From a virus (lineage: Duplodnaviria > Caudoviricetes): a stretch of DNA of 64,000 bases. Positions 19,379 to 45,193 of the stretch are shown piece by piece. Positions within the stretch are counted from its first letter, which is position 1. The number at the start of each line of letters is the position of its first letter. The position numbers and the translations under genes are program-made. The stretch lies in the IMG/VR virus record IMGVR_UViG_3300033120_000337, positions 8,448 through 72,447 of that record; one strand, written 5' to 3'. The notes beneath the pieces are model-generated. The model saw nothing but the letters and a program-made list of their open reading frames with translations. It was not told the DNA's origin and made no database searches.

Positions 19379-20556
19379 TCATCGAGAACTCAAACCAACT
19401 CGAATGAAGTTCTCAACCTCATTCGGACGGTAGAAGAGACTGGGGTCTTGTAGAAGAGCCTCCCGAGCTAGTCGAACAGGTTCCTGCCTGTCTCTACCTG
19501 AGAGATTGAACTCTGAAATGAGACCCTCGTTGTCGACCTGAGGTCTGCGTAGGAGGGCCGTAAAGGATGTTCTCTCCGCTAGGGTCATTGAAGACGCTAC
19601 TCGACGCAGAGAGGCTTGCTGAGAGGCCGTGAGGAACCCCAAAGACTGTGAACCCAACCCTAGGTCTGCCATGTCGAGTAGAAGCAAGACATCGTGGGAG
19701 GTGGTTTGAAACTGACCTGCCATGTAGGAGGCGAAGGGTCTCTGGGTGGCGATCATCTTGGCCAGCACCTCAATGAGCCCAAAGGGCTTCATTGTGACGA
19801 GAGCCTCTCGGGCCCCAGTACCCGAGAGGATGTTCTGAACCAAGATGGTGGAGACTGCTTCCCAGGGCATGTTCTGAAGCTTCTCGGCATTCTTTCGCAT
19901 TGAGGTCTCAACCTCAGGTGAGATTTGAAGCCCGTACTTCACGAGGAACTTGATTGCCCGCAACATCCTTGTGGGTCATCGGAGAAAGTCCTGTCAGGAT
20001 CTAGGGGGGTCTGGATGACCTTTTCCGATAGGTGGCGTAGCCCAAGACCTGTGAGGTCAAGGACTTCAACCCCGTCAGGCCCATTCGTTAGGTCTCCCAA
20101 TCTCCACAACAGGGTGTTGACCGTGAACTCTCGACGGTAGACGTCTTCCTCTATCGTGGCGGGCTGAACATCTGTTGGCTTGTAGCCCTTCCCTTTTCCA
20201 GATCCTCCATAGGACTCCTTCCGTGCGTTGGCGATTTCAATCACCTCTCCGGACATCTGAGCCCCATCCAGAGTCCAGTCTCCACAGACAGTGATGATGG
20301 CCACCCCGTACTGGTTGGTTGTGACGTTGGAGGTCACGGGAATCGCGTTTGCGACCTTCTTGGCAAACCAGTCAGAGTCCCTCCCACCCAAAGCAACAGA
20401 ATCGACCACTACATCGATATCCTTCACCGGAACTCCAAGTAGGTGGTTTCTCACTGCGCCTCCAACGACATAGATGTGGTTGCCCACTCCATTGTGGTTG
20501 GCGACATCCGAAAGGATTCTCATGAGTCCGGTTGTCTTTTGGTTTGTCTTAGTCAT
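19379..20556 (-). CDS. cca: class II tRNA nucleotidyltransferase (CCA-adding enzyme / poly(A) polymerase family), interrupted by a -1 frameshift at ~19974
   Basis: YVVGGAVRNHLLG, KDIDVV (DxD), EIANARKESY and RREFTVN motifs. TFSDDP continues as [T]RMLRAIKF in the -1 frame; GAC CC[C] ACA AGG restores ~392 aa. Confidence 0.8.
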
Positions 20557-21177
20557 TTGGTTCCTGGGAAAACACTCCCACAAGGTCTGAGGGGCTACAA
20601 GGACCCTCAAGTCGATTCCTGGGAGATGTCGTACATCCACAGACCTCTGAAGGCATCCGAGTAGGCTCTGTCAGGTTCTACCTAGACACCAAGAAAGTCT
20701 TCCTGTATACCAGCCCCTCGTTTCGTTTCCTGTTGTGTTGTTTCAGCAGGACGTGGAATTCCCTCTCGTCTACGATCTCCTGACCTCTTCCCAAAGAGAC
20801 TGGATAAGTACCCGAGGACAAGTAGGCCTTCTCCATCATGAGGTCTTACGGGGTTCCGGACTCGAAAGAGTCGTAGAGCGTCACGGTCGCTATCTACGAA
20901 ACGGTCTCCCCAACGCGAGAGTTTTGGGATCAAGACAAAGGACTCGTCTTGTGTAGTCGCCTACAAACCTGAGGCACTCAGAGGTCTGTTACGTAAGAAC
21001 ATACCTTGTCATCTATCTGCCCTCCCGTTCCAGTGGTTAGACTTCCTCTCATGCGAGAGTAGAGAGGATCAAAGTCTAAGAAGGAATAAGGATCACTCTG
21101 AGAGGAGGATCCAAAGAGAAGTAAGGGAAATAAGGGGATAGATGTTCCTTGAGAACACTTTCAAAATTCAGAATACA

Positions 21178-21786: not shown

Positions 21787-21808
21787 TTCTCTATTGAGTC
21801 TGAGAGAG

Positions 21809-22966: not shown

Positions 22967-22993
22967 GGCCACCTAGGGAAACCAGGTGGCCTG
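22967..22993. terminator. strong hairpin (terminator or processing signal) before the RNA island
   Basis: AGGCCACCT-AGGGAAACC-AGGTGGCCT, perfect 9-bp stem, no clear U-tract. Confidence 0.45.
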
Positions 22994-23113
22994 AGTCATT
23001 TCAGGGAGAAAAGATGAAATCAGGTTCGTTAGGTTTCAAGACGGGGGAAAGAAAGTTTGGTTCCTGGGGGGAAAAGAGAAACGTAGGTTCGTTAGGTTTC
23101 GAGAAGATTTCAT

Positions 23114-23198
23114 GGAGCGGACGTGGGCACTGGTAGCCCCACCTGTTTGTAACACAGGCGCCCGAAAAGCATTGTGGGTTCGAATCCCTCTCGCTCCA
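23114..23198 (+). tRNA. tRNA-Tyr(GTA)
   Basis: Cloverleaf; CCTGT-TTGTAAC-ACAGG; long variable arm. Confidence 0.85.
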
Positions 23199-23236
23199 TA
23201 TGCAGAACAAGCAGAAACGAGGCTCAGTCTCCATCC

Positions 23237-23309
23237 GGGACTGTAGCTCAACAGGTAGAGCAGCAAGCTTTTAACTTGCGGTATGAGGGTTCAAGTCCCT
23301 TCGGTCCCA
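23237..23309 (+). tRNA. tRNA-Lys(TTT)
   Basis: Canonical cloverleaf; loop CTTTTAA. Confidence 0.95.
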
Positions 23310-23319
23310 TGGCTTCTTT

Positions 23320-23392
23320 CGGACACAAGCATTAGCGGTGATGCACTAGACTCTTAATCTGGGGAATTCGGGTTCAACTCCCAGGTGTCCGA
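23320..23392 (+). tRNA. tRNA-Lys(CTT)
   Basis: Acceptor CGGACAC/GTGTCCG; loop CTCTTAA; imperfect T-stem. Confidence 0.8.
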
Positions 23393-23435
23393 CTCTTCAA
23401 GCTTCAACTCTCAAAGTTCAAAACTCAAAGTTCAT

Positions 23436-23506
23436 TCTCGGATCGTCTAGCGGTAGGACAGTTGACTCTGACTCAACGAACTGAGGTTCGAATCCTCGTC
23501 CGAGAA
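23436..23506 (+). tRNA. tRNA-Gln(CTG)
   Basis: GTTGA-CTCTGAC-TCAAC; T1-A72 pair. Confidence 0.9.
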
Positions 23507-23760
23507 TCCTGAGGTGATAAAGCCACCTTCCTTCAACCGGAAAAAGTGGCTCACCTCAAACTGAAAACTGAATATGGAATTCCTTCAGCGTGACTCCACG
23601 GGAGCACGCAGAGTTAGGATTCTGAGTTGGGGCCACTTGAGTAGTGGGTATCTCAACTCAGAGGGCCTTCTCAAGATTGTTCGCGCTTTCCAGTTCTTGC
23701 GACCTAGACAACCTAGATAAAATTGAACTGGATATACAGGGAGGAAAGACTCCCGACTAT

Positions 23761-23832
23761 TCCTGGGTAGCTCAGAGGTAGAGCGACGAGCTGTTAACTC
23801 GTTGGTCGTAGGTTCGATTCCTTCCCCAGGAG
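23761..23832 (+). tRNA. tRNA-Asn(GTT)
   Basis: Canonical cloverleaf; loop CTGTTAA. Confidence 0.95.
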
Positions 23833-23836
23833 CTTT

Positions 23837-23908
23837 AGGCCACGGTCAGGGTAACCGGATTGGACTCCAAATCCGATCGTCTGCAAGGTTCGATTCCTTG
23901 GTGGCCTG
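23837..23908 (+). tRNA. tRNA-Trp(CCA)
   Basis: Acceptor AGGCCAC/GTGGCCT; loop CTCCAAA; atypical D-arm. Confidence 0.8.
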
Positions 23909-23923
23909 TCTTGCTTAGTTCTC

Positions 23924-23995
23924 GCAGCGGTAGCTCAGTGGTAGAGCACTTGATTGAAAATCGAGGTGTCGTCGGTTCAATCCCGACTCGTTGCA
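23924..23995 (+). tRNA. tRNA-Phe(GAA)
   Basis: Canonical; loop TTGAAAA. Confidence 0.9.
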
Positions 23996-24010
23996 TGTGT
24001 CTGTTTCTCT

Positions 24011-24082
24011 CGGGGTGTGGCTCAGTGGTAGAGCGCTCGGTTTGGGATCGAGAAGTCGCAGGTTCGACCCCTGTCTCCCCGA
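24011..24082 (+). tRNA. tRNA-Pro(TGG)
   Basis: Canonical; loop TTTGGGA. Confidence 0.95.
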
Positions 24083-24166
24083 CTCGCATGAATACTTGAA
24101 GGGTGTACATCTTTTTGGTAGATCGGCCCTCACGGGCCACTCACTCTTTATCCCTTGTCATGCGAG
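24083..24166 (+). ncRNA. Y-RNA-like RNA 1 (minimal, no tRNA domain)
   Basis: CTCGCATGA/TCATGCGAG terminal stem, ATAC, AAGGGTG/CACTCTT stem, TACA, and CCTTG bulge on the 3' strand. Confidence 0.65.
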
Positions 24167-24189
24167 TTTCTACTGTGTTCCTGAAAAAA

Positions 24190-24216
24190 TGGATGTGTTG
24201 ATCCAACCATTCAGCA
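24190..24216 (+). promoter_or_regulatory. repeated H-type pseudoknot motif, copy 1
   Basis: TGGAT-G-TGTTG-ATCCA-ACCATT-CAGCA. Confidence 0.7.
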
Positions 24217-24261
24217 ACTCATGCGGCTAATCTCAGGTACCTGGCACCTTGAAGCCATTAC

Positions 24262-24334
24262 GGGCTTGTAGCTCATTTGGGAGAGCGCTTCGATGGCATC
24301 GAAGAGGTAAGCGGTTCGATCCCGCTCTGGTCCA
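24262..24334 (+). tRNA. tRNA-Ala(GGC)
   Basis: Cloverleaf with G3-U70; loop ATGGCAT. Confidence 0.9.
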
Positions 24335-24335
24335 T

Positions 24336-24461
24336 TCGTGTGAATACTCGATCGGGATTACATTGTCCTAACCACAATCGATCTGGGTTCGAATCCCAGG
24401 CATCTTCGCAAGAGGGTGAGCAGGGTTGCTAGAAAACATCTCGGTCATTCTTGTCGCACGA
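24336..24461 (+). ncRNA. Y-RNA-like RNA 2 (YrlA-type, permuted tRNA-like domain with degenerate D-arm)
   Basis: TCGTGTGA/TCGCACGA stem, ATAC, ATCGGGAT/ATCTCGGT stem, TACA; T-arm CTGGG-TTCGAAT-CCCAG followed by a closed acceptor hairpin CATCTTC-GCAA-GAGGGTG. Confidence 0.7.
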
Positions 24462-24471
24462 TCTATTTTCT

Positions 24472-24544
24472 GTCTCTGTCGTCTAAAAGGCTAGGACCTT
24501 GGCCTCTCAAGTCAAGAACAGGAGTTCGAATCTCCTCAGAGACA
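24472..24544 (+). tRNA. tRNA-Glu(CTC)
   Basis: Canonical; loop CTCTCAA. Confidence 0.9.
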
Positions 24545-24680
24545 TCAAGCGAATTGGAAGTCAGACTACAACCAAGCAGATGGTCGCGGGTTCGAATCCC
24601 GTCCTTCGGGTAAAACCGGAGGTAGCTCAGCGGTAGAGCATCCGCCATATACACGTCTCCTTCCGTTCTTTGTCGCTTGA
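24545..24680 (+). ncRNA. Y-RNA-like RNA 3 (YrlA-type, circularly permuted tRNA mimic)
   Basis: TCAAGCGA/TCGCTTGA terminal stem; order is T-arm (GCGGG-TTCGAAT-CCCGT), closed acceptor (CCTTCGG-GTAAAA-CCGGAGG), D-arm (GCTC-AGCGGTA-GAGC); no anticodon loop. Confidence 0.85.
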
Positions 24681-24686
24681 ACTATT

Positions 24687-24838
24687 CCAGAGGTGGAATA
24701 CCTGTGAGGACTACATCTAAACCTCAGTGTCGCTGGTTCAAGTCCAGCCTGCCCCGCTTCTATGGGGGAGTAGCTCAGTTGGTAGAGCATGAGAATGTCC
24801 ACGCTAAAACTTGTCCGCCTCACTAACTTCCTTCCTGG
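24687..24838 (+). ncRNA. Y-RNA-like RNA 4 (YrlA-type, circularly permuted tRNA mimic)
   Basis: GAATAC, GTGAGG/CCTCAC stem, TACA; T-arm GCTGG-TTCAAGT-CCAGC, closed acceptor CTGCCCC-GCTTCTAT-GGGGGAG, D-arm GCTC-AGTTGGTA-GAGC. Confidence 0.8.
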
Positions 24839-24909
24839 TGTTTGTAGCTCAACGGTAGAGCGCTCGATTGTGGATCGAGATACGAGGGGTTCAACTCCCC
24901 CCTTACACC
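24837..24909 (+). tRNA. tRNA-His(GTG)
   Basis: G-1/C73 pair; loop TTGTGGA. Confidence 0.85.
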
Positions 24910-24914
24910 CTCAA

Positions 24915-24988
24915 CGGGTATGACGGTCTGGTTGATCTGCTTTCCCTGATAAGGAGGGCGTGCATGAGTTCGATTCTCTGATACCCGA
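24915..24988 (+). tRNA. tRNA-Ile(GAT)
   Basis: Acceptor CGGGTAT/ATACCCG; loop CTGATAA; weak anticodon and T stems. Confidence 0.65.
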
Positions 24989-25162
24989 TGCCGTGTCCAG
25001 GGTCTGTTTGACCTGGCCTCAAGGAACTGGCTCAACAAAAGTTGGGTTGGGCGCGAACGGATTAGCGTGTGACTCGAATGGGGGAGGTCGTTCTCCCCAC
25101 TCGCCAGAATGTAGGCCTAGCCGTACCTATGTTCCTGAAAAAAAACTACGGCTGTTTCTTGA

Positions 25163-25236
25163 TGCGGAGTAGAGCAGTCTGGTAGCTCGCTAGGCTCATA
25201 ACCTAGAGGTCGGTGGTTCGAATCCATCCTCCGTTA
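25163..25236 (+). tRNA. tRNA-Met(CAT), initiator-like
   Basis: Mismatched 1:72 pair; fMet-type D-arm GAGC-AGTCTGGTA-GCTC; loop CTCATAA. Confidence 0.85.
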
Positions 25237-25305
25237 TTATGCCGGAATCTCACCACCATGTTCCCAGGGATGGGACTCCACATGGTGGTCCGGCTCCAAC
25301 TAAAC

Positions 25306-25378
25306 GGGCATGTAGCTCAGCTGGGAGAGCGGTGGCTTTGCAAGCCATAGGTCAGGGGTTCGATCCCCCTCTTGTCCA
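25306..25378 (+). tRNA. tRNA-Ala(TGC)
   Basis: Canonical, G3-U70; loop TTTGCAA. Confidence 0.95.
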
Positions 25379-25379
25379 T

Positions 25380-25520
25380 GGGAAGATAGCTCAGGAGACG
25401 TCTAAGACGTTCGACTTGTCTGAGGAGTACGGGAGACCAAGGGCCCAGAAACAAAGACAGTTCAGAGCGGCGAGCCAGTAAGCTCGGTGCGCGTCGGTGA
25501 AAATCCGATTCTTCCCACCA
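25380..25520 (+). ncRNA. tRNA-like RNA with 72-nt D-loop, 6-nt anticodon loop and encoded CCA
   Basis: GGGAAGA/TCTTCCC-A-CCA acceptor; GCTC...GAGC D-stem; CGAGC-CAGTAA-GCTCG arm; GTCGG-TGAAAAT-CCGAT T-arm. Confidence 0.65.
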
Positions 25521-25716
25521 TTTTCCGATAGGTAGTGAATGCCAAATGCGCCTCGAACCATGAGGAATGAGCGGGGCTAACCACTATCCTTCGGAATCCA
25601 TTTACTCCTGAAGATGTTGCAAGTAGGTGTCCTGGAAGGTCTTGGGCCAGGATAGGAGTTCTCCCCAAGAGAAGGGTTCAAGTCCCACTACTTGCAATGT
25701 CTTCAGGTGTAGTTTC

Positions 25717-25788
25717 TCCGCCAAAGCATAAAGGGTGATGCCCCGTCTTGGTATGACGGTTAACTGGTTTCAAGCACCAGTGGTGGCT
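25717..25788 (+). tRNA. tRNA-Thr(GGT)
   Basis: CCGTC-TTGGTAT-GACGG; 6-bp acceptor; T-arm CTGGT-TTCAAGC-ACCAG. Confidence 0.6.
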
Positions 25789-25798
25789 TGTTTCTTTA

Positions 25799-26207
25799 GG
25801 GTCTGTACTGGTTTCGACAGGGTGTGCGAATAGAGAGAGTGCGTGTCGGGCTTCGTCAGGTCAGCTCGTTAAAAAGATGTGTCAAATAAGCTGCCAACTC
25901 AAACAGCTACGTTCCCGCCGCAATGGCTGCGTGAACCGTGGGTACGTGTAGCCGCCTAGGGCGACATGTACTTGCGTAATCAAATCTAGGTAAAAACCCC
26001 GGCTTTTCTTCAGCGGGGGGTCGCAAGACTACTCTGAGGGAATGGTGGAGGGTACTACGCGAACCGTGGAACCCCTAAAGGTGGCCCGTTGGGGCTGGGC
26101 ATCTTAGGTCAAGAGGCTTGCTTCTTGACCACCCGAATTCCAACTACACACGTAGGACTCGATCTAACTAGCCATTTTGGACGTGGGTTCGATTCCCACC
26201 AGATCCA
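25799..26207 (+). ncRNA. ssrA: tmRNA; tag peptide (A)ANSNSYVPAAMAA*
   Basis: 5' GGGTCTGTACTGGTTTCGAC; acceptor GGGTCTG/CAGATCC with G3-U70; T-arm GTGGG-TTCGATT-CCCAC; resume codon at 25893 after AAATAAGCT; stop at 25932-25934. Confidence 0.92.
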
Positions 26208-26216
26208 TCAGTGAAT

Positions 26217-26289
26217 GCGGGCGTAGCTCAGTTGGTAGAGCCTCAGTTTTCCAAACTGAATGTCGTCGGTTCGAATCCGATCGCCCGCT
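26217..26289 (+). tRNA. tRNA-Gly(TCC)
   Basis: Canonical; loop TTTCCAA. Confidence 0.95.
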
Positions 26290-26444
26290 ACTCGTCCCCG
26301 TGCTGCCAGGGGGAGATCGAGAGATAGGGACCCCTGGACTTGTCCAGGCTAGGAACCCTACTGGCACAATAGATTTTCGGGTCGGCACGGTTGCGGTGGG
26401 TCGCTCCCACCTCGGGTTCAACTCCCATACGGTCCACTCATTTT

Positions 26445-26516
26445 GCGGGTGTAGGTCAGTGGTAGACCATCAGCTTCCCATGCTGAATGTCGTGGGTTCG
26501 ACTCCCATCACCCGCT
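26445..26516 (+). tRNA. tRNA-Gly(CCC)
   Basis: Canonical; loop TTCCCAT. Confidence 0.92.
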
Positions 26517-26518
26517 CT

Positions 26519-26585
26519 GGGCTGAATACTCGCCGGGAGTACATCCTTGCACGGTGAAACCTCTCTCGGTATTTCTTGTCAGTCC
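26519..26585 (+). ncRNA. Y-RNA-like RNA 5 (minimal)
   Basis: GGGCTGA/TCAGTCC stem, ATAC, CCGGGAG/CTCTCGG stem, TACA, TATT-TCTTG on the 3' strand. Confidence 0.7.
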
Positions 26586-26591
26586 TCTAAT

Positions 26592-26662
26592 GACGCTGTC
26601 CTTCTGGTGAAGGCATCTGACTGCAAATCAGGTTGAGGGACGTTCAACTCGTCTCGGCGTCT
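26592..26662 (+). tRNA. tRNA-Cys(GCA)
   Basis: GACGCTG/CGGCGTC acceptor; loop CTGCAAA; U73. Confidence 0.8.
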
Positions 26663-26678
26663 TGACGGTAAGGTGACA

Positions 26679-26705
26679 TGGATGCGCTGATCCAAACCCT
26701 CAGCG
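26679..26705 (+). promoter_or_regulatory. repeated pseudoknot motif, copy 2
   Basis: TGGAT-G-CGCTG-ATCCA-AACCCT-CAGCG, enclosed by TGACGGTA (26663) / TACCGTCA (26738). Confidence 0.7.
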
Positions 26706-26744
26706 ACCCACAGGGGATTGGATGTAAGTCTACCGTCAGTTTTT

Positions 26745-26816
26745 GTCCTTGTAGCTCAGTGGAAGAGCAGGAGCCTTCTAAGCTCTTGGTCAGGGGTTCA
26801 ACTCCCTTCAGGGACG
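26745..26816 (+). tRNA. tRNA-Arg(TCT)
   Basis: Canonical; loop CTTCTAA. Confidence 0.95.
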
Positions 26817-26826
26817 TGTTTCTTTA

Positions 26827-26899
26827 GTCCGCATAGTGAAACTGGATATCACGCATCTCTACGAAAGATGTATTCGGGGTTCGAATCCCTGTGTGGACG
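26827..26899 (+). tRNA. tRNA-Arg(ACG)
   Basis: Canonical; loop CTACGAA. Confidence 0.92.
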
Positions 26900-26982
26900 C
26901 TAGTACCTATCATGAATCCTCACCCCTACTTTCGGAAGTCTGAATAAGGGGTCAGGAAGGAAAGCTCGTCTCAAGATAAACT

Positions 26983-27054
26983 GTCCTTGTGTTGAAGTGG
27001 ATATCAAGGAAGCCTCCGAAGCTTTCATCCCAAGTTCGAATCTTGGCAAGGACG
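26983..27054 (+). tRNA. tRNA-Arg(CCG)
   Basis: Canonical; loop CTCCGAA. Confidence 0.92.
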
Positions 27055-27225
27055 TTCCACTGTGTCTCATTCGACGCTCTCGCAGGTGTAGATGAGGAGT
27101 CACACAGAAAGGCGTGGGTCTCTCAGCGGTCCACGGGAAGAAAGCATACAGGGGAAGGCAACTTGCTCTTACTGAGCCCTATCTCAGGAGGGTAATAGCT
27201 AGAACTGGAAGCAAGCTGGGGTTTC

Positions 27226-27294
27226 GCCTCTGTCTTCTTGGAGAAGGTCAACTCTCATAAGGTTGGTGTGACGGTTCGATTCCGTACTGAGGCA
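27226..27294 (+). tRNA. tRNA-Met/Ile2(CAT), short D-arm
   Basis: CAACT-CTCATAA-GGTTG; T-arm with TTCGATT; acceptor GCCTCTG/CTGAGGC. Confidence 0.65.
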
Positions 27295-27492
27295 TTGGAT
27301 GGTCTAAAGGGAAGGAGGCACTTAGCCTGTGTTTCCGGAATCACATGGCTTGTGATTCCCGAACTTAGACCCTCTGAGTCGTACAAAGCCGTTGGAGACA
27401 AACCAACAATGGAGCGGTAGAAGTCCGCGTAAACGGATGTGGAATCCGAACTGGACAGAATGAGGGTGAGAGACCTTCTGAGTACGATTTTT

Positions 27493-27564
27493 GCGCTTGG
27501 ATGCCGTTGGATGGCAGCCGCACTGTCTATGCGGTGAAGCTCGGTTCGATTCCGGTCAGGCGCG
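27493..27564 (+). tRNA. tRNA-Asp(GTC)
   Basis: CCGCA-CTGTCTA-TGCGG; G73. Confidence 0.85.
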
Positions 27565-27722
27565 TTTCCGCTGTGTTCCTGGTAGGTTGCACGTAACAGG
27601 GGTTAACACAGAAAGGCGTGGGTGGATGTGCACCCATAGGGAAAAAGTCCAAGTTCGTGTCGGATGGTGTCTGCGAGTCCTTACGTAGACAGCCAAACAG
27701 CGAGTCTTGGGCACATATCTAA

Positions 27723-27794
27723 CGGAGTGTGGCGAAGTGGTATCGCGCTTGGTTCGGGACCGAGAGATCGCAGGTTCAATCCCTGTCACTCCGA
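27723..27794 (+). tRNA. tRNA-Pro(CGG)
   Basis: Canonical; loop TTCGGGA. Confidence 0.95.
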
Positions 27795-27849
27795 AATCCT
27801 CATGAGATGGGGAAAAGACCATAGGGTCTTCGTTAATGAGATAGGAAAA

Positions 27850-27876
27850 CGGATGCGCTGTTCCAACCCATCAGCG
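27850..27876 (+). promoter_or_regulatory. repeated pseudoknot motif, copy 3 (stem 1 degenerate)
   Basis: CGGAT-G-CGCTG-TTCCA-ACCCAT-CAGCG. Confidence 0.55.
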
Positions 27877-27900
27877 ACCTGAGATGAAGAAGAGAAGAAT

Positions 27901-27972
27901 GCACGGGTAGCTCAGCGGTAGAGCGGTTGTCCTACACACAACGGGTCAGGGGTTCGACTCCCTTTTCGTGCA
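27901..27972 (+). tRNA. tRNA-Val(TAC)
   Basis: GTTGT-CCTACAC-ACAAC (C33). Confidence 0.88.
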
Positions 27973-28130
27973 AAACAAAAACCCACCTAGGTAGCAAGGA
28001 TTCAGTTCCTTGCATAACGTTCAGGGAGGTGGGGAGAGCGGATAGAGTGAACGTACTCCGCTTACAAATACCGGACAAGGAAGAGCATAGAGAGGTTTCC
28101 TCAATACACCTCTTCCTTGATCTTGGACAA

Positions 28131-28210
28131 GCCCGAGTGGTGAAATTGGCATACACACCGTCCTCAGAAGGCGGCGCGAAAGCGTGTGGGTTCGACTCCC
28201 GCCTCGGGCA
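28131..28210 (+). tRNA. tRNA-Leu(CAG)
   Basis: Class II cloverleaf; loop CTCAGAA. Confidence 0.92.
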
Positions 28211-28227
28211 CTGTTTCTGTTTGTAAT

Positions 28228-28311
28228 GAGGATGTGGCGGAATTGGTATACGCGCCAGACTAAGAATCTGGTGGTCTTAGAATCGTGTGGGTTCGACTCC
28301 CACCATCCTCA
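28228..28311 (+). tRNA. tRNA-Leu(AAG)
   Basis: CCAGA-CTAAGAA-TCTGG; Leu-type D-arm and variable arm; A34. Confidence 0.88.
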
Positions 28312-28396
28312 TGGGTTAGGCAACTTCGTGCAGACAAAATGTCACTGATCATGACGTCGTTGTCGGTCGTTGCCCAACTCAGTTTCTCAGTTCTAT

Positions 28397-28471
28397 GAGG
28401 GGATAGCCCAACGGCAGAGGCAGGGTCTTTAAGATTCCCCAAGGTGGTGGGTTCGAATCCCCCTCTCCTTA
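28397..28471 (+). tRNA. tRNA-Leu(TAA)
   Basis: Positional count gives loop TTTAAGA; weak anticodon stem; short variable arm. Confidence 0.7.
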
Positions 28472-28476
28472 GTTTT

Positions 28477-28557
28477 GCGAAGGTGGCGGAATGGCATACG
28501 CGCTGGGTTTAGGTTCCAGTATCTTCGGGTGTGAGGGTTCGAGTCCCTCTCTTCGCA
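28477..28557 (+). tRNA. tRNA-Leu(TAG)
   Basis: Class II; loop TTTAGGT. Confidence 0.92.
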
Positions 28558-28577
28558 TTGGTTTTTGAGTCTCAAAC

Positions 28578-28657
28578 GCGGGAATGGCGGAATTGGCATA
28601 CGCATCGGCTTCAAAACCCGACGAGAAATCTTGAGGGTTCGACTCCCTCTTCCCGCA
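28578..28657 (+). tRNA. tRNA-Leu(CAA)
   Basis: Class II; loop TTCAAAA. Confidence 0.88.
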
Positions 28658-28685
28658 CAACAACAAACAGAAAGGTAGGTAGACC

Positions 28686-29213
28686 GTGCAAATGACTCTT
28701 GTATTGGATCAAGGCTACCAGCCTCATCGGGTAGTCACATGGCAGCGAGCTGTGATGCTGTGGTGGGAGGGTAAGTGTGAGGTCGTTGAAGAGTACGACA
28801 ACGACATTCGAAGTGTGTCCATCACAATCAAGATGCCTGCTGTTGTTCGACTCTTGCACAGAGTGCGGGGGAAGAAGCAGGCTGTGAAGTTCTCTCGGAT
28901 CAACGTTGCGACTCGTGACAACTTCACCTGTCAATACTGCGTCAAGAAGCTCCCTCTCTCGAAGCTTACGTACGACCACGTTGTACCTAAGTCCAAGGGT
29001 GGAAAGACTTGCTGGGAGAACATCGTGATGGCTTGTCACCCCTGTAACGAGGGGAAGAGAGATCGCTCACCCGAGCAAGCAGGTCTGAAGCTGCGTAAGC
29101 AGCCAGTCAAACCAGCTTACTTGCCAGTAGTGACCATGAGATTTGAGATGACCAACATCCCTGATGCTTGGGTATCCTACGTCTACTGGAACTCTCCTCT
29201 CGAAGAGGGCTAG
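28686..29213 (+). CDS. HNH endonuclease (McrA-like family)
   Basis: TLVLDQGYQP, PAVVRL, RDNFTCQYC, TYDHVVPKSKGG and WENIVMACHPCNEGK; SD AAAGG. Confidence 0.9.
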   Translation: MQMTLVLDQGYQPHRVVTWQRAVMLWWEGKCEVVEEYDNDIRSVSITIKMPAVVRLLHRVRGKKQAVKFSRINVATRDNFTCQYCVKKLPLSKLTYDHVVPKSKGGKTCWENIVMACHPCNEGKRDRSPEQAGLKLRKQPVKPAYLPVVTMRFEMTNIPDAWVSYVYWNSPLEEG

Positions 29214-29699
29214 TTTTGATTTCGATGTGGTTTCTCTGAATCCGGTCTCTAACGAATGGCTGAAGACACTCTCTGGTCACGGGGGGTAAGGCAGCAATCT
29301 GGAGAACGGTTGTATCGTCGCTGTGAAGGAAAGTACGGGGCAGGAGATTTCGAGCTACTAGGCCTGGCATTAGGTTCTCCAGGTTCGAGATCTCTCTGGC
29401 AGGCGCTAAGAATACAATCCAGTGCTGCTCGCCTTGAGGGTAAAAGCCCTTCGAGTTGTTGAAGCCGACCGGCCAGTCGGTTGAGACTCGTGTCCGAATA
29501 ACTAACTTTCACGGTTACGTCCTGGGGTGGAATCTCAGGTCGATAGAGGACGGGTTCAGGGAAACCACAAAGATTTCCGGACGACTTTTCGGAGTCGGCA
29601 AATGCATGGGCGGGACGGCGTCCATGGGAATACAACGATTGTCAGGTGACTGGCAGTCAGACCCGTCCTCTTTTCTTTACAGTGTCTCAACTGTGAAAA

Positions 29700-29727
29700 T
29701 GGCTGTGCTGAGCCAACCCAATCAGTG
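29700..29727 (+). promoter_or_regulatory. repeated pseudoknot motif, copy 4 (compensatory TGGCT/AGCCA)
   Basis: TGGCT-G-TGCTG-AGCCA-ACCCAAT-CAGTG. Confidence 0.7.
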
Positions 29728-29746
29728 ACTACCTGTCCGTTGATCT

Positions 29747-29833
29747 GGAAGTTGAATCTGTCAGGGACAGAGCCTGTTTCGAACACAGTGCGCTCTTCGT
29801 AAGAAGAGTGGGGATCAAGACCTCCGATTTCCG
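29747..29833 (+). tRNA. tRNA-Ser(CGA)
   Basis: Loop TTCGAAC; long variable arm; T-loop ATCAAGA. Confidence 0.8.
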
Positions 29834-29842
29834 TGTCTGATT

Positions 29843-29927
29843 GGAAGCTGAAATGGCCAGGGGTCATTACTGCTTGGAAAGCAGCTAGCACCTGAAAGGG
29901 TGTGGAGTTCGAGTCTTCCGGCTTCCG
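29843..29927 (+). tRNA. tRNA-Ser(GGA)
   Basis: Loop TTGGAAA; long variable arm. Confidence 0.85.
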
Positions 29928-29932
29928 TGAAA

Positions 29933-29959
29933 TGGATGCGTTGATCCAACCCATCAGCG
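29933..29959 (+). promoter_or_regulatory. repeated pseudoknot motif, copy 5
   Basis: TGGAT-G-CGTTG-ATCCA-ACCCAT-CAGCG. Confidence 0.7.
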
Positions 29960-29998
29960 ACAAGTCGCGGTTCTAGGCCTGATCAGCAATGTGATAAT

Positions 29999-30085
29999 GG
30001 AGGGTAATCTCGGCCGGGCCGAGCACTGCCTTGAAAACAGAGGGCTCCTTGAAAGAGGGGTGGAGTTCGACTCTTCTGCTCTCCA
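29999..30085 (+). tRNA. tRNA-Ser(TGA)
   Basis: Loop CTTGAAA; long variable arm. Confidence 0.82.
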
Positions 30086-30088
30086 TTT

Positions 30089-30173
30089 GGAAGGTGAACT
30101 GGCCAGGGGTCAGTCCGGTTTGCTAAACCGAGAGTGCTCGCAAGGGCATGGGGATCAGGACCTCCTCCTTCCG
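30089..30173 (+). tRNA. tRNA-Ser(GCT)
   Basis: Loop TTGCTAA; long variable arm; T-loop ATCAGGA. Confidence 0.82.
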
Positions 30174-30184
30174 TTTCCGTTTCT

Positions 30185-30256
30185 GCGGGTGTAGCTCAGT
30201 GGTAGAGCGTTTCGTTGCCAACGAAAATGTCGCGGGTTCAATCCCCGCTACCCGCT
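30185..30256 (+). tRNA. tRNA-Gly(GCC)
   Basis: Canonical; loop TTGCCAA. Confidence 0.95.
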
Positions 30257-30363
30257 TGTGTGAACTCAACACAACCTCCTAGAGGGTGACGTGTTCTCAC
30301 AATTTGTCCTCCAGAAAACTGGAGGAAGGAATTCCTGTTCAGGAAAACATCGGGGTAGATACT

Positions 30364-31995
30364 GTGGCAAACAAGAATCTCTTTCAATCCGCTCCAGCGG
30401 GTCGCGTCGCGCCGATTGCCGACACAGTCAACGCAGCTGGTGGTTTGGCGTACAAGGCTTCTCAGAAGGAAGCTCTTGCTCAGTACGTGGCTACTGGTTG
30501 TCTGGGTTCAACGTTCTACTCGACAGATGAGGAACAGTTGGACACGATCTTGAAGCTCGCTGCTTCAGTGGATCCTGAGTTCGTTGCGAAGGCAGCGATC
30601 TACGGACACAAGTCAGCCTTCATGAAGGACGCTCCGGCCCTCCTTCTGGCTCACCTCATGACACGTGGAGAGCCTGGTATCGCAGCCATGAAGTCTGCTT
30701 TCTTCCAGGTCATCGACAACCCAAAGATGATGCGGACTTTCGCTCAGATTGTCCGGTCTGGTCGGGTTGGTCGAAAGTCTTTTGGTACGGCACCAAAGAA
30801 GCTGATTGAGACTTGGTTCCTGAACCGTACAGATGCTCAGTTGATCCGTGCAACAGGTGACAAGCCTTCGATTGCAGACGTGGTCAAGATGGTTCACCCA
30901 AAGCCAGCCACACCTGAGCGGAAGGAAACTTACGCTTGGCTCGTGGACAAGAAGGTCGACCTCGAAAAGGCAGATCCTCTTCTTCAGGAGTACGAGGCTT
31001 GGAAGAAGGACACCACTCGTCCGATTCCTGATGTTCCGTTCCTCATGCTCTCGAATGCGAAACTCACGAAGTCTCAGTGGGTGGAAATCGCACTCTCTGC
31101 TTCTTGGCAGACTTTGCGTATGAACATCAACACGTTCCAACGTCACGGTGTTTTCGAGGACGCAGCCACGGTCAAAAAGCTTGCAGACAAGCTTCGTGAT
31201 GAGGACTCGATTCTTCGGGCTCGGGTATTCCCATACCAACTCCTTGTTGCGTACAAGCACACTGAGGCTGCTCCCATGGAGATCCAGAACGCTCTTCAGG
31301 ATGCGATGGAAATTGCGACCAAGAACGTTCCTTCCTTTGATGGTCTGAAGGTTGCGGTTTTCCCAGACGTGTCTGGGTCTATGGCTTCCCCAGTCACAGG
31401 CACTCGAAAGGGTGCTACTTCGAAGGCTCAGTGCAGAGAGGTCGCTGCCCTCATTGCAGCTACGATCCTTCGTAGGAACCCAGATGCCATTGTTCTTCCC
31501 TTCAAGGAAGACATTGTGAAGCTGAGGTTCAACCCACGCGATTCGATCATGACGATCGCCAAGCAGATTGCGGAATGCGGCTCAGGTGGTACAGACTGCT
31601 CAGCTCCTCTGAGGGCTCTGAACGCAACCAAGGAGAAGGTGGACATCTGCATCTTCGCCTCGGACAATGAGTCTTGGATGGACAGCAAGGTCGTTCAAAA
31701 CTCTTGGTCCTCTGGTTACACATCATCGGCTACCAAGTCGATGATCGAGTGGGAGGCAATCCGTGCTCGGAACCCAAAGGCGAAGTTGGTTTGCATTGAC
31801 CTCGCTCCCAACGGCTCACGTCAGGCTCCTACACGTGAGGACATCCTCAATGTAGGCGGATTCTCGGATGAAGTGTTCACCCTCATGTCTGAGTTCGTAA
31901 AGGGCTCAGGTAGAGATCACTGGGTGAAGAAGATCGAGGCGATCGGTTCAAAGCCTACAGAAACGAAAAACGTTCCTGTAGAGGCTTCACCTTAG
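30364..31995 (+). CDS. rsr: Ro60/Rsr ortholog (TROVE domain + vWA domain)
   Basis: Probable GTG start (ANKNLF..ADTVNAAGG.AY..ALAQYVATGC); FPYQLLVAY; vWA MIDAS DVSGSM; GGTDCSAPL; SDNESW; ILNVGGFSDEVF. Confidence 0.92.
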   Translation: MANKNLFQSAPAGRVAPIADTVNAAGGLAYKASQKEALAQYVATGCLGSTFYSTDEEQLDTILKLAASVDPEFVAKAAIYGHKSAFMKDAPALLLAHLMTRGEPGIAAMKSAFFQVIDNPKMMRTFAQIVRSGRVGRKSFGTAPKKLIETWFLNRTDAQLIRATGDKPSIADVVKMVHPKPATPERKETYAWLVDKKVDLEKADPLLQEYEAWKKDTTRPIPDVPFLMLSNAKLTKSQWVEIALSASWQTLRMNINTFQRHGVFEDAATVKKLADKLRDEDSILRARVFPYQLLVAYKHTEAAPMEIQNALQDAMEIATKNVPSFDGLKVAVFPDVSGSMASPVTGTRKGATSKAQCREVAALIAATILRRNPDAIVLPFKEDIVKLRFNPRDSIMTIAKQIAECGSGGTDCSAPLRALNATKEKVDICIFASDNESWMDSKVVQNSWSSGYTSSATKSMIEWEAIRARNPKAKLVCIDLAPNGSRQAPTREDILNVGGFSDEVFTLMSEFVKGSGRDHWVKKIEAIGSKPTETKNVPVEASP

Positions 31996-32032
31996 ACCTC
32001 TTACCGCCTCGGTAGCATCTCTATGCTCCGCC

Positions 32033-32455
32033 ATGAAGAAGAAAGGATTCTTCATGGCGGAGAGCAAGAGAAAAGGAGACGTAGGAGAGGCTATGGTGTT
32101 GGCCGATGTTTTGAGGCAAGGACACAAGGTCGCTCTCCCTGTGGGTGAGGATTGGAGATACGACTTAATTGTTCTGAGGCATGGGAAGTTGGAAAGAGTT
32201 CAATGTAAGTACGTTGAATCCGATGGCTTGGTGATTGAAGTTCCAGGTCGGAGTTCAAATTCTCATTCAACTCGTCTATACACCTCAGATGAGATTGACT
32301 GCCTCGCAGTTTATGACAAGACAACTGAGTCTTGTTACTACATCCCATCCTCTGAGATAGGGTCTGGTAAGTCCTTGTTTTCCCTTAGGTTAGTTCCTTC
32401 TTCAAATGGTCAGGTTAAGAGAGTACGTTGGGCAAAAGACTACAAGTCTTGGTGA
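32033..32455 (+). CDS. free-standing PD-(D/E)xK endonuclease (PDDEXK_5 / I-Ssp6803I-like)
   Basis: KGDVGEAMV, P.GEDWRYDLIV, RVQCKY, Y..DEIDCLAVYD and CYYIP motifs. Confidence 0.85.
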   Translation: MKKKGFFMAESKRKGDVGEAMVLADVLRQGHKVALPVGEDWRYDLIVLRHGKLERVQCKYVESDGLVIEVPGRSSNSHSTRLYTSDEIDCLAVYDKTTESCYYIPSSEIGSGKSLFSLRLVPSSNGQVKRVRWAKDYKSW

Positions 32456-32460
32456 TTTCT

Positions 32461-32533
32461 GCCTCTATAGCTCAGTTGGAAGAGCACCCTCCTTGTAAGT
32501 GGGATGTCGTCGGTTCGATTCCGACTGGAGGCT
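32461..32533 (+). tRNA. tRNA-Thr(TGT)
   Basis: Canonical; loop CTTGTAA. Confidence 0.92.
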
Positions 32534-32548
32534 TGGTTTCTGTTTCTT

Positions 32549-32621
32549 GGCCCCATCGTCTATTGGTTAGGATTGTGGATTTTCACTCCACAAAACGTGG
32601 GTTCGATTCCCCGTGGGGTCA
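32549..32621 (+). tRNA. tRNA-Glu(TTC)
   Basis: Canonical; loop TTTTCAC. Confidence 0.92.
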
Positions 32622-32635
32622 TTTCATTTCAGCAC

Positions 32636-32706
32636 TCTGGGTTCGTCTAAAGGCAGGACGTCGGACTTTGAATCCGTGAATGGAGGTTCGATTCCTCCAC
32701 CCAGAA
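32636..32706 (+). tRNA. tRNA-Gln(TTG)
   Basis: Canonical; loop CTTTGAA; T1-A72 pair. Confidence 0.9.
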
Positions 32707-32875
32707 TTTTAGGGGGAATTCCATTTCAATTGACTTCCGCATTGCTCTGAGCTAGTAGAGATGTGCGGCATTCATTTTGTTGGATGGGTGTTGTTCTGTA
32801 CCGGCGCATGTAAGTGGATCCAACACCACTACATGCGCCTTTTTTTATTTGGGGTTTCTGGCGCCTCAAAGAGTA

Positions 32876-45191: not shown

Positions 45192-45193
45192 TC

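What the first reader, a model, noticed from the sequence alone, without database searches (positions are those of the whole stretch)
24083..31995. Phage Ro60 with a family of five Y-RNA-like genes sharing one conserved module
Seen: five loci (24083-24166, 24336-24461, 24545-24680, 24687-24838, 26519-26585) share a layout of terminal stem ending in GA, then ATAC (ATT in one), a second stem and TACA. The 3' strand carries (T/C)AT(T/C) or GTT, then a CTTG/CTTTG bulge, then TC (copy 4 is the most divergent). Stem sequences differ completely between copies yet pairing is kept. A full rsr gene lies in the same island. Known: bacterial Ro60 binds Y RNAs through a bulged terminal helix and tethers partners such as PNPase; typically one or two Y RNAs lie beside rsr. 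Inference: one Ro60 with five interchangeable RNA adaptors (three tRNA mimics, two minimal) for tRNA quality control, nuclease tethering or decoying. The GAATAC/TACA/CTTG signature differs from the GNCGAA motif I recall for YrlA.
Basis: partly seen in the sequence, partly recalled or inferred. Interest (0 to 1): 0.9.

Follow-up and report, generated by a model that had tools for sequence, protein, structure and literature searches.

The report
Phage Ro60 with five Y RNAs
A fragment of a very large uncultured phage carries the ring-shaped RNA-binding protein Ro60 and, tucked between its tRNA genes, five small RNA genes that all end in the helix known to dock onto Ro60; this is a larger, tRNA-linked version of a known phage and bacterial system, not a new kind of thing.

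Summary
A covariance model (CM) built from the family finds exactly these five in the island.

They are Y RNAs. The 'GAATAC / TACA / CTTG' signature is the terminal helix of the known YrlA family, not a different one. The Rfam consensus reads cgaAUGC...CUAc...AcUuGuc, and copy 4 aligns to it end to end (53 bits, below the 69-bit cut-off). Copies 2-4 carry tRNA-like domains. Copies 1 and 5 are minimal.

The 569-aa ORF is an intact Ro60 (TROVE plus vWA; best solved relative is D. radiodurans Rsr).

Three additions:
- Four of the five RNAs start 0-2 nt after a CCA-less tRNA, as do 25 of 45 relatives. This suggests release by tRNA end-processing.
- Each paralog has a closer counterpart in related phages than in its own genome.
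- The module lies beside Ro60 in every related phage examined (2-8 per record), with up to 13 per locus in other phage contigs. It gave 302 hits in 80 bacterial Ro60 loci, all on the Ro60 strand.

Ro60 binding, expression and function are untested. Earlier notes of this scan report similar arrays on other DNA.

The parts
24083..24166 (+). Y RNA 1, minimal type (84 nt): terminal helix, then two small hairpins in place of a tRNA-like domain. It starts at or 1 nt after the end of tRNA-Pro(UGG).
   Evidence: Fold -32.6 kcal/mol, z -5.09. CM R2 61.9 bits, R3 52.9 bits. Adjacency.
24336..24461 (+). Y RNA 2 (126 nt): terminal helix, V-like hairpin, T arm (CUGGGUUCGAAUCCCAG), GCAA-capped acceptor-like hairpin and a degenerate D-like hairpin. 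It starts 1 nt after tRNA-Ala(GGC) and ends 9 nt before tRNA-Glu(CUC).
   Evidence: Fold. R2 46.7 bits, R3 54.5 bits. No Rfam YrlA hit at E<=10. 79-80% identical to counterparts L001:2574-2699 and L004:1771-1897.
24545..24680 (+). Y RNA 3 (136 nt), YrlA type: T arm, closed acceptor-like hairpin and near-perfect D arm. The helix variant reads GAAUUGG / CUUUGUC. It starts directly after the discriminator of tRNA-Glu(CUC).
   Evidence: Rfam YrlA 36.3 bits over model positions 24-84. R2 only 14.6 bits. Descriptor stem 1 pairs 8 of 8. 73% identical to L001:3717-3850.
24690..24822 (+). Y RNA 4 (about 133 nt), YrlA type: full terminal helix, T arm, acceptor-like hairpin and D arm. It starts 9 nt after Y RNA 3 and ends 16 nt before tRNA-His(GUG).
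   Evidence: Rfam YrlA 53.4 bits, E 5e-10, model positions 1-114 of 114, below the gathering score of 69. R2 30.7 bits.
26518..26586 (+). Y RNA 5, minimal type (69 nt): terminal helix closing a loop of about 20 nt (UACAUCCUUGCACGGUGAAACC) that is conserved in counterparts. It lies between tRNA-Gly(CCC) and tRNA-Cys(GCA), 0 and 5 nt away.
   Evidence: R2 68.1 bits, R3 57.3 bits. The same position between tRNA-Gly(CCC) and tRNA-Cys is occupied in L001, L003 and L004. 80% identical to L001:5724-5791.
30286..31995 (+). Ro60 / Rsr gene (569-aa ORF from the first GTG; the true start may lie a little downstream): TROVE ring plus vWA domain with a DVSGS MIDAS motif.
   Evidence: Pfam vWA_Ro60 70.4 bits, TROVE 25.7 bits. 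PDB: 2NVO Rsr 2e-20, Thermus phage phiLo Ro60 (9KOP/9L5Y) 3e-16, Xenopus Ro60 1YVP 2e-7.
24011..24083 (+). tRNA-Pro(UGG), no encoded CCA. Its 3' end abuts Y RNA 1.
   Evidence: ARAGORN and Rfam. 3' ends listed.
24262..24334 (+). tRNA-Ala(GGC), no encoded CCA tail. Its 3' end abuts Y RNA 2.
24471..24546 (+). tRNA-Glu(CUC) (Rfam limits 24472-24544), no encoded CCA. Its 3' end abuts Y RNA 3.
26445..26517 (+). tRNA-Gly(CCC), no encoded CCA. Its 3' end abuts Y RNA 5.
19939..20640 (-). Context gene: nucleotidyltransferase with a PolyA_pol head domain, the family that includes CCA-adding enzymes. This fits a tRNA set that lacks encoded CCA.
   Evidence: Pfam PF01743 1.3e-15.

Best explanation
The five loci are Y RNA genes, the small RNAs that partner with Ro60, and they belong to the phage's own Ro60 gene 3.7-6.2 kb downstream on the same strand.

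Shown by sequence analysis:
- All five end in one covarying two-helix stem whose conserved letters are those of the known YrlA terminal helix.
- Three carry a tRNA-like domain in the YrlA order (T arm, closed acceptor-like hairpin, D arm). Two carry only short hairpins or a loop.
- The same module sits on the Ro60 strand in the Ro60 loci of related phages and of many bacteria.

Inferred steps:
1. The RNAs are transcribed as part of the tRNA array. They are released by the enzymes that mature the flanking CCA-less tRNAs. A cut after the discriminator of the upstream tRNA (RNase Z type) makes the Y RNA 5' end. RNase P at the next tRNA leaves a 3' tail of 2-16 nt.
2. The phage Ro60 binds the shared helix.
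3. The differing distal domains bring different partners to the ring, or gate it. By analogy, the loop-bearing minimal RNAs would bring an exonuclease such as host PNPase, and the tRNA mimics would bring tRNA-recognising enzymes. This would serve RNA surveillance or repair during infection of a host that attacks tRNAs.
For: Structure and motif:
- Common fold.
- Motif enrichment: 4 against 0.41 expected; 6 against 0.34.

Identity with YrlA:
- Copy 4 aligns end to end with RF02553 (53.4 bits, E 5e-10).
- The Rfam consensus itself reads cgaAUGC / CUAc / AcUuGuc.

Covariation:
- 49 hits in Ro60 phage loci are 94.6% paired against 66.8% shuffled, with 15 of 15 pairs showing double changes. Slid controls give 37-58%.
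- An independent set of 76 hits is 96.8% paired, with slid controls at 36-54%.

Linkage to Ro60:
- Hits occur in every related Ro60 phage record scanned over its whole length: 2-8 each, all on the Ro60 strand.
- 302 hits in 80 bacterial Ro60 loci, all on the Ro60 strand.
- My descriptor gives 159 hits on that strand against 4 on the other.

Intact Ro60.

Processing:
- 25 of 45 model hits start -2 to +3 nt from an upstream tRNA end, and 28 of 45 end within 15 nt of the next gene.
- None of the 33 tRNA genes encodes CCA.
- There is a CCA-adding-type transferase gene.
- No sigma-70 promoters or terminators lie inside the array.

Paralogs kept apart: each window copy is 66-80% identical to a counterpart in another phage against at most 65% to its own paralogs.

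Precedent: Thermus phage phiLo Ro60 binds two phage-encoded Y-like RNAs and host PNPase in vitro (PMC12135203).
Against: - No direct evidence of expression, RNA ends or Ro60 binding. Public runs gave only contigs.
- No copy reaches the Rfam YrlA gathering score. Copy 2 gets no YrlA hit, and copy 3 scores only 14.6 bits with the module model.
- Four of the five copies do not fit the published GNCGAAN0-1G motif letter for letter.
- The module also occurs in phage records where no Ro60 was found, three of them rated complete. An own Ro60 is therefore not obligatory.
- The covariation counts were made on alignments fitted to the model.
- The division of labour among paralogs is analogy only.
Confidence: 0.8

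Rival explanations
1. The RNAs are real and of the Y type, but they work mainly with a host protein rather than with the phage Ro60. That could be the host's own Rsr or a tRNA-binding or tRNA-cleaving enzyme. One version has them act as decoys that soak up anticodon nucleases or other tRNA-directed defences.
For: - Single minimal copies with the same helix occur in 40-72 kb phage records rated 98-100% complete that have no TROVE gene.
- Bacterial Ro60 proteins about 50% identical to the phage's are common.
- Three copies mimic tRNA.
- The window holds a large tRNA set, a tmRNA, an RlaP RNA-repair transferase and a CCA-adding-type enzyme.
Against: - This phage and all its close relatives keep an intact Ro60 on the same strand as the RNAs.
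- The conserved part of the RNAs is the Ro60-docking helix, not the tRNA-like part.
- The two minimal copies have nothing tRNA-like to offer a decoy role.
Confidence: 0.12
2. They are structured spacers of the tRNA operon. On this view they are processing, insulating or stabilising hairpins, or elements that insert next to tRNA 3' ends. They have no role of their own, and their likeness to Y RNAs is superficial.
For: - They sit flush against tRNA ends.
- Two of them exchanged positions relative to related phages.
- No promoter or terminator of their own was detected.
Against: - The same module occurs in tandem arrays without any tRNA next to Ro60 in other phages (L005, L006, L031) and in bacteria.
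- The internal-loop letters are conserved across phyla while the stems covary.
- Copy 4 matches YrlA over its full length.
Confidence: 0.05
3. Copies 2-4 are decayed or circularly permuted tRNA genes, or remnants of tRNA dimers, and copies 1 and 5 are unrelated hairpins.
For: - The T arm precedes the D arm, as in permuted tRNA genes.
- Low-scoring YrlA hits in related loci were in fact tandem tRNAs.
Against: - There is no anticodon loop.
- The acceptor-like stem is closed by a loop.
- All five share the same terminal helix.
- Counterparts are conserved in position and sequence across phages.
Confidence: 0.03

Closest known systems
Bacterial Rsr (Ro60) with YrlA / YrlB Y RNAs (Salmonella Typhimurium, Mycobacterium smegmatis; Rfam RF02553; Chen et al. 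2014, PMC4201824; Wang et al. 2018, 10.1101/312249)
   Same: - Ro60 gene with Y RNA genes nearby on the same strand.
- Terminal helix made by the 5' and 3' ends, carrying GAAU(G/A)C ... CUAC ... CUUGUC.
- tRNA-like domain in the order T arm, closed acceptor-like hairpin, D arm.
- A second, smaller Y RNA sharing the 5' motif.
   Different: - Five RNAs rather than the one or two characterised there.
- Scores fall below the Rfam cut-off.
- The published GNCGAAN0-1G motif is only partly kept in this window.
- The genes lie inside a phage tRNA array and start flush with tRNA 3' ends, instead of lying directly beside rsr.
- No RtcB was seen in the window.
Thermus phage phiLo Ro60 with Yrl1 and Yrl2 (NAR 2025, PMC12135203; PDB 9KOP, 9L5Y)
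   Same: - A phage-encoded Ro60 with more than one phage-encoded Y-like RNA.
- That paper shows Ro60 binding and a ternary complex with host PNPase in vitro.
- The window's Ro60 matches this protein at E 3e-16.
   Different: - Two RNAs directly upstream of the gene there; five spread through a tRNA array here.
- The phiLo RNAs were identified by a CGAA motif.
- No tRNA-flush arrangement is reported there.
Mycobacteriophage (Bxz1 type) and Streptomyces phage Ro proteins with YrlA (Chen et al. 2014: 22 phages)
   Same: Large phages with many tRNAs, a Ro60 gene and a YrlA-like RNA near it.
   Different: - In ScottMcG, Samisti12 and Vibrio phage Va1 I found one YrlA-model hit each and no hit of the module model R3.
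- Their Ro60 proteins are only 22-27% identical to this one.
Deinococcus radiodurans Rsr-Yrn1-PNPase machine (RYPER)
   Same: Model for how a Y RNA works: one end docks on Ro60 and the other tethers an exonuclease.
   Different: Yrn1 belongs to a different Y RNA lineage. No PNPase gene or interaction is shown here.
Small RNAs released from tRNA-linked precursors by tRNA-processing enzymes (murine gammaherpesvirus 68 tRNA-miRNA units, plant tRNA-snoRNA units; from memory, not checked here)
   Same: A non-tRNA small RNA lies directly after a tRNA, so cutting at the tRNA 3' end would create its 5' end.
   Different: Those are eukaryotic or viral RNA polymerase III units. Processing here is inferred from gene spacing only.

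Membership tests
Y RNA (Ro60-associated small RNA class) | Long stem formed by pairing of the 5' and 3' ends, interrupted by an internal loop or bulge | tested here: met
   All five fold this way. Both helices covary in 49 and in 76 related sequences.
Y RNA (Ro60-associated small RNA class) | Encoded near a Ro60 gene on the same strand (bacterial and phage Y RNAs) | tested here: met
   The RNAs lie 3.7-6.2 kb upstream of Ro60 on the same strand. Module hits are on the Ro60 strand in all related phage loci and in 302 of 302 bacterial hits.
Y RNA (Ro60-associated small RNA class) | Physically bound by Ro60 | not testable with these tools
   Needs EMSA or RIP. The only precedent is phage phiLo (PMC12135203).
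Y RNA (Ro60-associated small RNA class) | Expressed as a discrete RNA of about 80-130 nt | tested here: inconclusive
   Predicted sizes are 69-136 nt. Public runs were available only as contigs, which cannot show transcripts or ends.
YrlA (Rfam RF02553) | Score at or above the curated gathering score (69 bits) | tested here: not met
   Copy 4 scores 53.4 bits over the full model, copy 3 scores 36.3 bits over the tRNA-like part only, and copies 1, 2 and 5 get no hit.
YrlA (Rfam RF02553) | tRNA-like domain: T arm, closed acceptor-like stem-loop, D arm, in that order | tested here: met
   Met for copies 3 and 4 (alignments). Copy 2 has a T arm and acceptor-like hairpin but a degenerate D-like hairpin. 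Copies 1 and 5 lack the domain.
YrlA / YrlB | GNCGAAN0-1G motif near the 5' end (Chen et al. 2014) | tested here: inconclusive
   The window copies read AUGAAUAC, GUGAAUAC, GCGAAUUG, UGGAAUAC and CUGAAUAC. GAA is kept, but the preceding C is kept in only one copy and the final G is usually A. Relatives read CGAAUGC and fit the motif. The CM treats both forms as one family.
Ro60 / Rsr (TROVE protein) | TROVE (HEAT-repeat ring) domain followed by a vWA domain with a MIDAS motif, aligning with solved Ro60 over its full length | tested here: met
   PF25045 70.4 bits and PF05731 25.7 bits, both above their cut-offs. 2NVO aligns residues 48-540 to 28-532, with DVSGS matching DVSGS.

The most novel reading that the evidence does not exclude
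In a clade of very large phages, which includes the cultured Myxococcus phage Mx1, Y RNAs are made as passengers of the tRNA operon. Each starts at the nucleotide after a CCA-less tRNA, so the tRNA 3'-end nuclease defines its 5' end.

The phage keeps five or more anciently diverged paralogs. This lets one Ro60 ring be pointed at different partners during infection.

Some small phages without Ro60 carry a lone minimal Y RNA, which may capture the host's Ro60.
Probability: 0.3. Interest if true: 0.7.

Novelty: new variant of a known kind. Interest (0 to 1): 0.5.

Why it matters
Ro60 and its Y RNAs are conserved from bacteria to humans, where Ro60 is a lupus and Sjogren autoantigen. What the variable halves of Y RNAs do is still largely open.

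- **Scale of the system.** These loci show that one Ro60 commonly comes with a panel of many Y RNAs, not the one or two studied so far. I found 5 here, up to 13 per locus in other phage contigs, and up to about 10 beside bacterial rsr.
- **Division of function.** The paralogs are old and kept apart by selection, which points to different jobs for each.
- **A testable route of biogenesis.** The tRNA-flush layout gives a concrete prediction for how these RNAs are released.
- **A bench model.** The cultured phage Mx1 has the same layout and could be used to test it. One of its Y RNAs is currently annotated as a 40-aa protein.
- **Annotation.** These RNAs are missed by Rfam at its curated threshold.

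Tried and rejected
- **First covariance model.** A single-sequence model of copy 1 (R1) found only copy 5, because long inserts are too costly. I replaced it with models built from 13 and then 46 sequences.
- **MAFFT of the five copies.** It misaligned the second stem and was not used.
- **Low-scoring Rfam YrlA hits.** In related records, those at L001:2277-2389 and 5921-6040 turned out to be tandem tRNAs and were discarded.
- **Twister-sister hit on copy 4.** It scored 25 bits against a cut-off of 34. I take it as a chance match to the T arm.
- **Expression.** One public metatranscriptome and three runs labelled 'RNA?' hold parts of the island, but only as assembled contigs. Depth there is inflated by tRNA-like contigs from other organisms. 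No listed RNA contig spans a Y locus. Nothing can be said about transcription, ends or strand.
- **Close relatives among cultured phages.** A nucleotide search found none; it returned only tRNA matches.
- **Sigma-70 promoter and terminator scan of the array.** It found fewer sites than in shuffles, so it is uninformative beyond being compatible with one long transcript.
- **Pattern scan of IMG/VR.** 7 of 37 loci had no model hit and are probably chance matches.
- **Papers and supplements not held.** I could not read the 2020 Annual Review on bacterial Ro60. The supplementary tables of Chen et al. 2014 are also not held. I therefore cannot rule out that large arrays are mentioned there.

Full report
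**What the window is.** The window is part of a 72,447-base IMG/VR virus record rated about 16% complete, that is, a fragment of a very large phage. From 23113 to 32706 it holds 33 tRNA genes and a tmRNA, all on the + strand. Inside this island the ORF 30286-31995 encodes a full-length Ro60:
- Pfam vWA_Ro60 at 2e-19 and TROVE at 8e-6, both above their curated cut-offs.
- Best solved relatives are D. radiodurans Rsr (2NVO, 2e-20, aligned over residues 48-540 with the MIDAS DVSGS conserved), the Ro60 of Thermus phage phiLo (9KOP/9L5Y, 3e-16) and Xenopus Ro60.

Other genes in the window:
- an RlaP RNA-repair nucleotidyltransferase at 31-885;
- a PolyA_pol-head (CCA-adding type) transferase at 19939-20640 on the minus strand;
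- an ART-PolyVal ADP-ribosyltransferase at 21794-22648;
- HNH and PD-(D/E)XK endonucleases;
- replication and recombination genes.

**The observation.** All five loci are real.
- Each folds on its own into a terminal stem of 7-9 bp ending in G-A/U-C. An asymmetric internal loop follows (5' AAUAC, or AAUU in copy 3; 3' three or four letters plus CUUG or CUUUG), then a second stem of 8-9 bp, then UACA.
- GAATAC-N(5-15)-TACA occurs four times in 64 kb against 0.41 expected, and only at these loci.
- A descriptor of my own (GAAT, CTT(T)GTC, two stems) gave six hits against 0.34 in shuffles. These are the five loci and one weak 50-nt hit at 40158 that no later model supports.
- The interiors differ. 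Copies 2-4 hold a T arm, a loop-closed acceptor-like hairpin and a D or D-like arm. Copy 1 holds two small hairpins. Copy 5 holds a loop of about 20 nt.

**What it is.**
- With relaxed thresholds, Rfam's YrlA model (RF02553) aligns copy 4 over all 114 model positions (53.4 bits, E 5e-10; gathering score 69). It aligns the tRNA-like core of copy 3 at 36.3 bits.
- The printed consensus of that family reads acggCgaAUGCuuggG.gaaCUAc on the 5' side and guAuGuuc.CccaaAaAcUuGucGccg on the 3' side.
- The published GNCGAAN0-1G motif (PMC4201824) is the same stretch. The window copies keep GAA but mostly not the flanking C and G. Relatives read CGAAUGC and fit it.

**A family model and covariation.** Using the Ro60 protein as query I fetched ten related phage loci from IMG/VR, with Ro60 43-76% identical.
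- A covariance model from 13 short members (R2) found 49 matches in these loci and the window. All are on the Ro60 strand.
- With filters off it scored the five window copies at 68.1, 61.9, 46.7, 30.7 and 14.6 bits. Nothing else in 22500-33500 scored above 9 bits.
- On the 49 sequences, 94.6% of cells pair (66.8% after shuffling; 37-58% when partners are slid). All 15 pairs show changes on both sides.
- A second model (R3, from 46 sequences) recovered 76 further sequences not used to build it. These are 96.8% paired, with slid controls at 36-54%.
- These alignments are fitted to the model, which favours pairing. The slid controls and the many pair types still argue for a real structure.
- A G-U pair followed by G-C and A-U in the second helix is nearly invariant (70, 73 and 70 of 76).

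**Linkage to Ro60.**
- Whole-record scans found 4 hits plus copy 3 in this record and 5, 7, 4, 8, 8, 4, 2 and 6 in related Ro60 phage records. They found 2 in the cultured Myxococcus phage Mx1.
- Most hits lie within about 15 kb of Ro60. In one 252-kb record six lie 43-52 kb away.
- A pattern scan of all IMG/VR gave 37 loci, 30 of which hold model hits, 93 in all. One locus has 13, and one has 7 in a row with spacers of 4-18 nt beside Ro60.
- Of the 32 new records, 9 hold a Ro60.
- 16 records with real modules have neither a Ro60 homolog nor a TROVE domain. Most are fragments, but three are rated 98-100% complete (40, 48 and 72 kb). Each of these holds one clear minimal copy.
- In 80 bacterial Ro60 loci (Ro60 46-54% identical; Acidobacteriota, Myxococcota, Planctomycetota, Verrucomicrobiota, Burkholderiales and others), R3 found 302 hits. 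All are on the Ro60 strand, with a mean of 3.8 and up to about 10 per locus.
- My descriptor gave 159 hits on the Ro60 strand against 4 on the other.
- The module is therefore tightly linked to Ro60 genes. Arrays of many copies are a general trait of this Ro60 subfamily, not something special to this phage.
- By contrast, the cultured phages ScottMcG, Samisti12 and Va1 gave one YrlA hit each and no R3 hit.

**New features seen here.**

*1. The RNAs start flush with tRNA 3' ends.*
- Four of the five window RNAs start 0-2 nt after the 3' end of a tRNA (Pro, Ala, Glu, Gly-CCC). The fifth follows copy 3 by 9 nt.
- Across model hits, which were found without reference to tRNAs, 25 of 45 start -2 to +3 nt from an upstream tRNA end. 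28 of 45 end within 15 nt of the next gene. A further 18 of 61 in the independent set are flush.
- With 33 tRNAs in 9.6 kb, a random position falls in such a 6-nt slot about 2% of the time (my arithmetic).
- None of the 33 tRNA genes encodes CCA.
- Mx1 shows the same layout. One hit starts 1 nt after tRNA-Ile and is annotated as a 40-aa CDS.

*2. The paralogs are old.*
- Each window copy is 66-80% identical to a counterpart in another phage and at most 65% identical to its own paralogs.
- Positions such as tRNA-Gly(CCC)-Y-tRNA-Cys and tRNA-Arg(CCU)-Y-tRNA-His are conserved.

**How it most likely works.**

Shown by sequence analysis:
- an intact Ro60;
- five RNAs sharing the YrlA-type docking helix;
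- linkage of that helix to Ro60 genes.

Inferred:
- The RNAs are co-transcribed with the tRNAs. No promoter or terminator signals lie inside the array.
- They are freed by tRNA maturation: an RNase Z-type cut after the discriminator, then RNase P at the next tRNA.
- They are bound by the phage Ro60 through the helix. Established knowledge of Xenopus, Deinococcus and Salmonella Ro60-Y RNA complexes places the docking site there, and phage phiLo Ro60 binds its two Y-like RNAs and host PNPase in vitro (PMC12135203).
- They use their different distal parts to gate the ring or to bring different partners.
- Which partner goes with which paralog is unknown. That the loop-bearing minimal RNAs tether an exonuclease and the tRNA mimics engage tRNA enzymes is analogy only.

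**Rivals.**
- *The RNAs mainly serve a host protein or act as decoys.* This rival gains some weight from the Ro60-less phages that carry a lone module. It is weakened by the strict retention of Ro60 in this clade.
- *They are passive spacers of the tRNA operon.* This is contradicted by tRNA-free arrays beside Ro60 in other phages and in bacteria.
- *They are decayed or permuted tRNAs.* This is contradicted by the shared helix, the closed acceptor-like stem and the absent anticodon loop.

**Novelty.**
- Phage Ro60 with Y RNAs is known. Chen et al. 2014 reported 22 phages and 355 YrlA candidates in 276 genomes. Phage phiLo was shown in 2025 to have two bound RNAs.
- What differs here is the number of paralogs, the two minimal forms that share the full helix, the tRNA-flush layout and the ancient separation of the paralogs.
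- I could not read the 2020 Annual Review or the 2014 supplementary tables. Large arrays may be mentioned there.
- Earlier notes of this scan describe similar phage Ro60 loci with 4-10 such RNAs on other DNA. I treat them as leads, not as support.
- I file this as a new variant of a known kind, of moderate interest.

Noticed in passing
L064-L143 (bacterial Ro60 loci): Model R3 finds 302 Y-type modules in 80 bacterial Ro60 loci. All are on the Ro60 strand and most lie directly up- or downstream of the gene, with up to about 10 per locus (for example L073 Pyrinomonadaceae; L109 and L131 with 8 each). The papers I could read describe one or two Y RNAs per species.
   Followed up: partly
L052:3480-3545 (-), L055:9359-9416 (-), L036:2968-3025 (+): Single minimal Y-type RNAs (58-66 nt, CCGAAUGC ... 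GGGA(C/G)UACA ... CCUUGUCGG) occur in phage records of 40, 48 and 72 kb. These are rated 98-100% complete and have no TROVE gene. They may be Y RNAs that use the host's Ro60.
   Followed up: partly
L144:2021-2126 (OR576727.2 45520-45625): In the cultured Myxococcus phage Mx1, one module hit starts 1 nt after tRNA-Ile and is annotated as a 40-aa hypothetical protein (WNM70101.1). A second hit (45169-45294) lies in an unannotated gap. Neither is annotated as RNA.
   Followed up: partly
window 24083-24461: Copy 1 (after tRNA-Pro) is most like the Y RNA that follows tRNA-Ala in related phages. Copy 2 (after tRNA-Ala) is most like the one that follows tRNA-Pro there. The two seem to have exchanged places.
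   Followed up: no
window 28396-28472: ARAGORN calls a tRNA with anticodon UUA, which would read the stop codon UAA. The Rfam tRNA score is 28.7, just under the cut-off of 29. ORFs in the window look normal under the standard code.
   Followed up: no
window 29998-30085: A match to the tRNA-Sec model scores 46.9 bits (cut-off 47) and was not called by ARAGORN. Related phages have a tRNA-Ser at this position upstream of tRNA-Gly(GCC), so it is probably a long-arm tRNA-Ser.
   Followed up: no
window 24177-24189, 25131-25145, 27575-27584: The motif GTTCCTGAAAAAA (GTTCCTGGTA at the third site) recurs in spacers of the tRNA array. The first copy lies 11 nt after Y RNA 1. Other first-stage notes call it part of a dispersed pseudoknot motif.
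   Followed up: no
L003:4748-4851, L010:2241-2346: The Y RNA that follows tRNA-Phe in two related phages carries a T arm only, with no D arm. This is an intermediate form between the minimal and YrlA types.
   Followed up: no
window 25379-25798 and 26290-26444: These are long unassigned spacers in the tRNA array. The second contains a T-arm-like GGGTTCAACTCCC. They may hold further small RNAs or unusual tRNAs.
   Followed up: no
window 31-885, 5175-6740, 21794-22648: Three genes were noted: an RlaP RNA-repair-associated nucleotidyltransferase, a GroEL-type chaperonin and an ART-PolyVal ADP-ribosyltransferase. The first fits an RNA-repair theme around the tRNA island.
   Followed up: no
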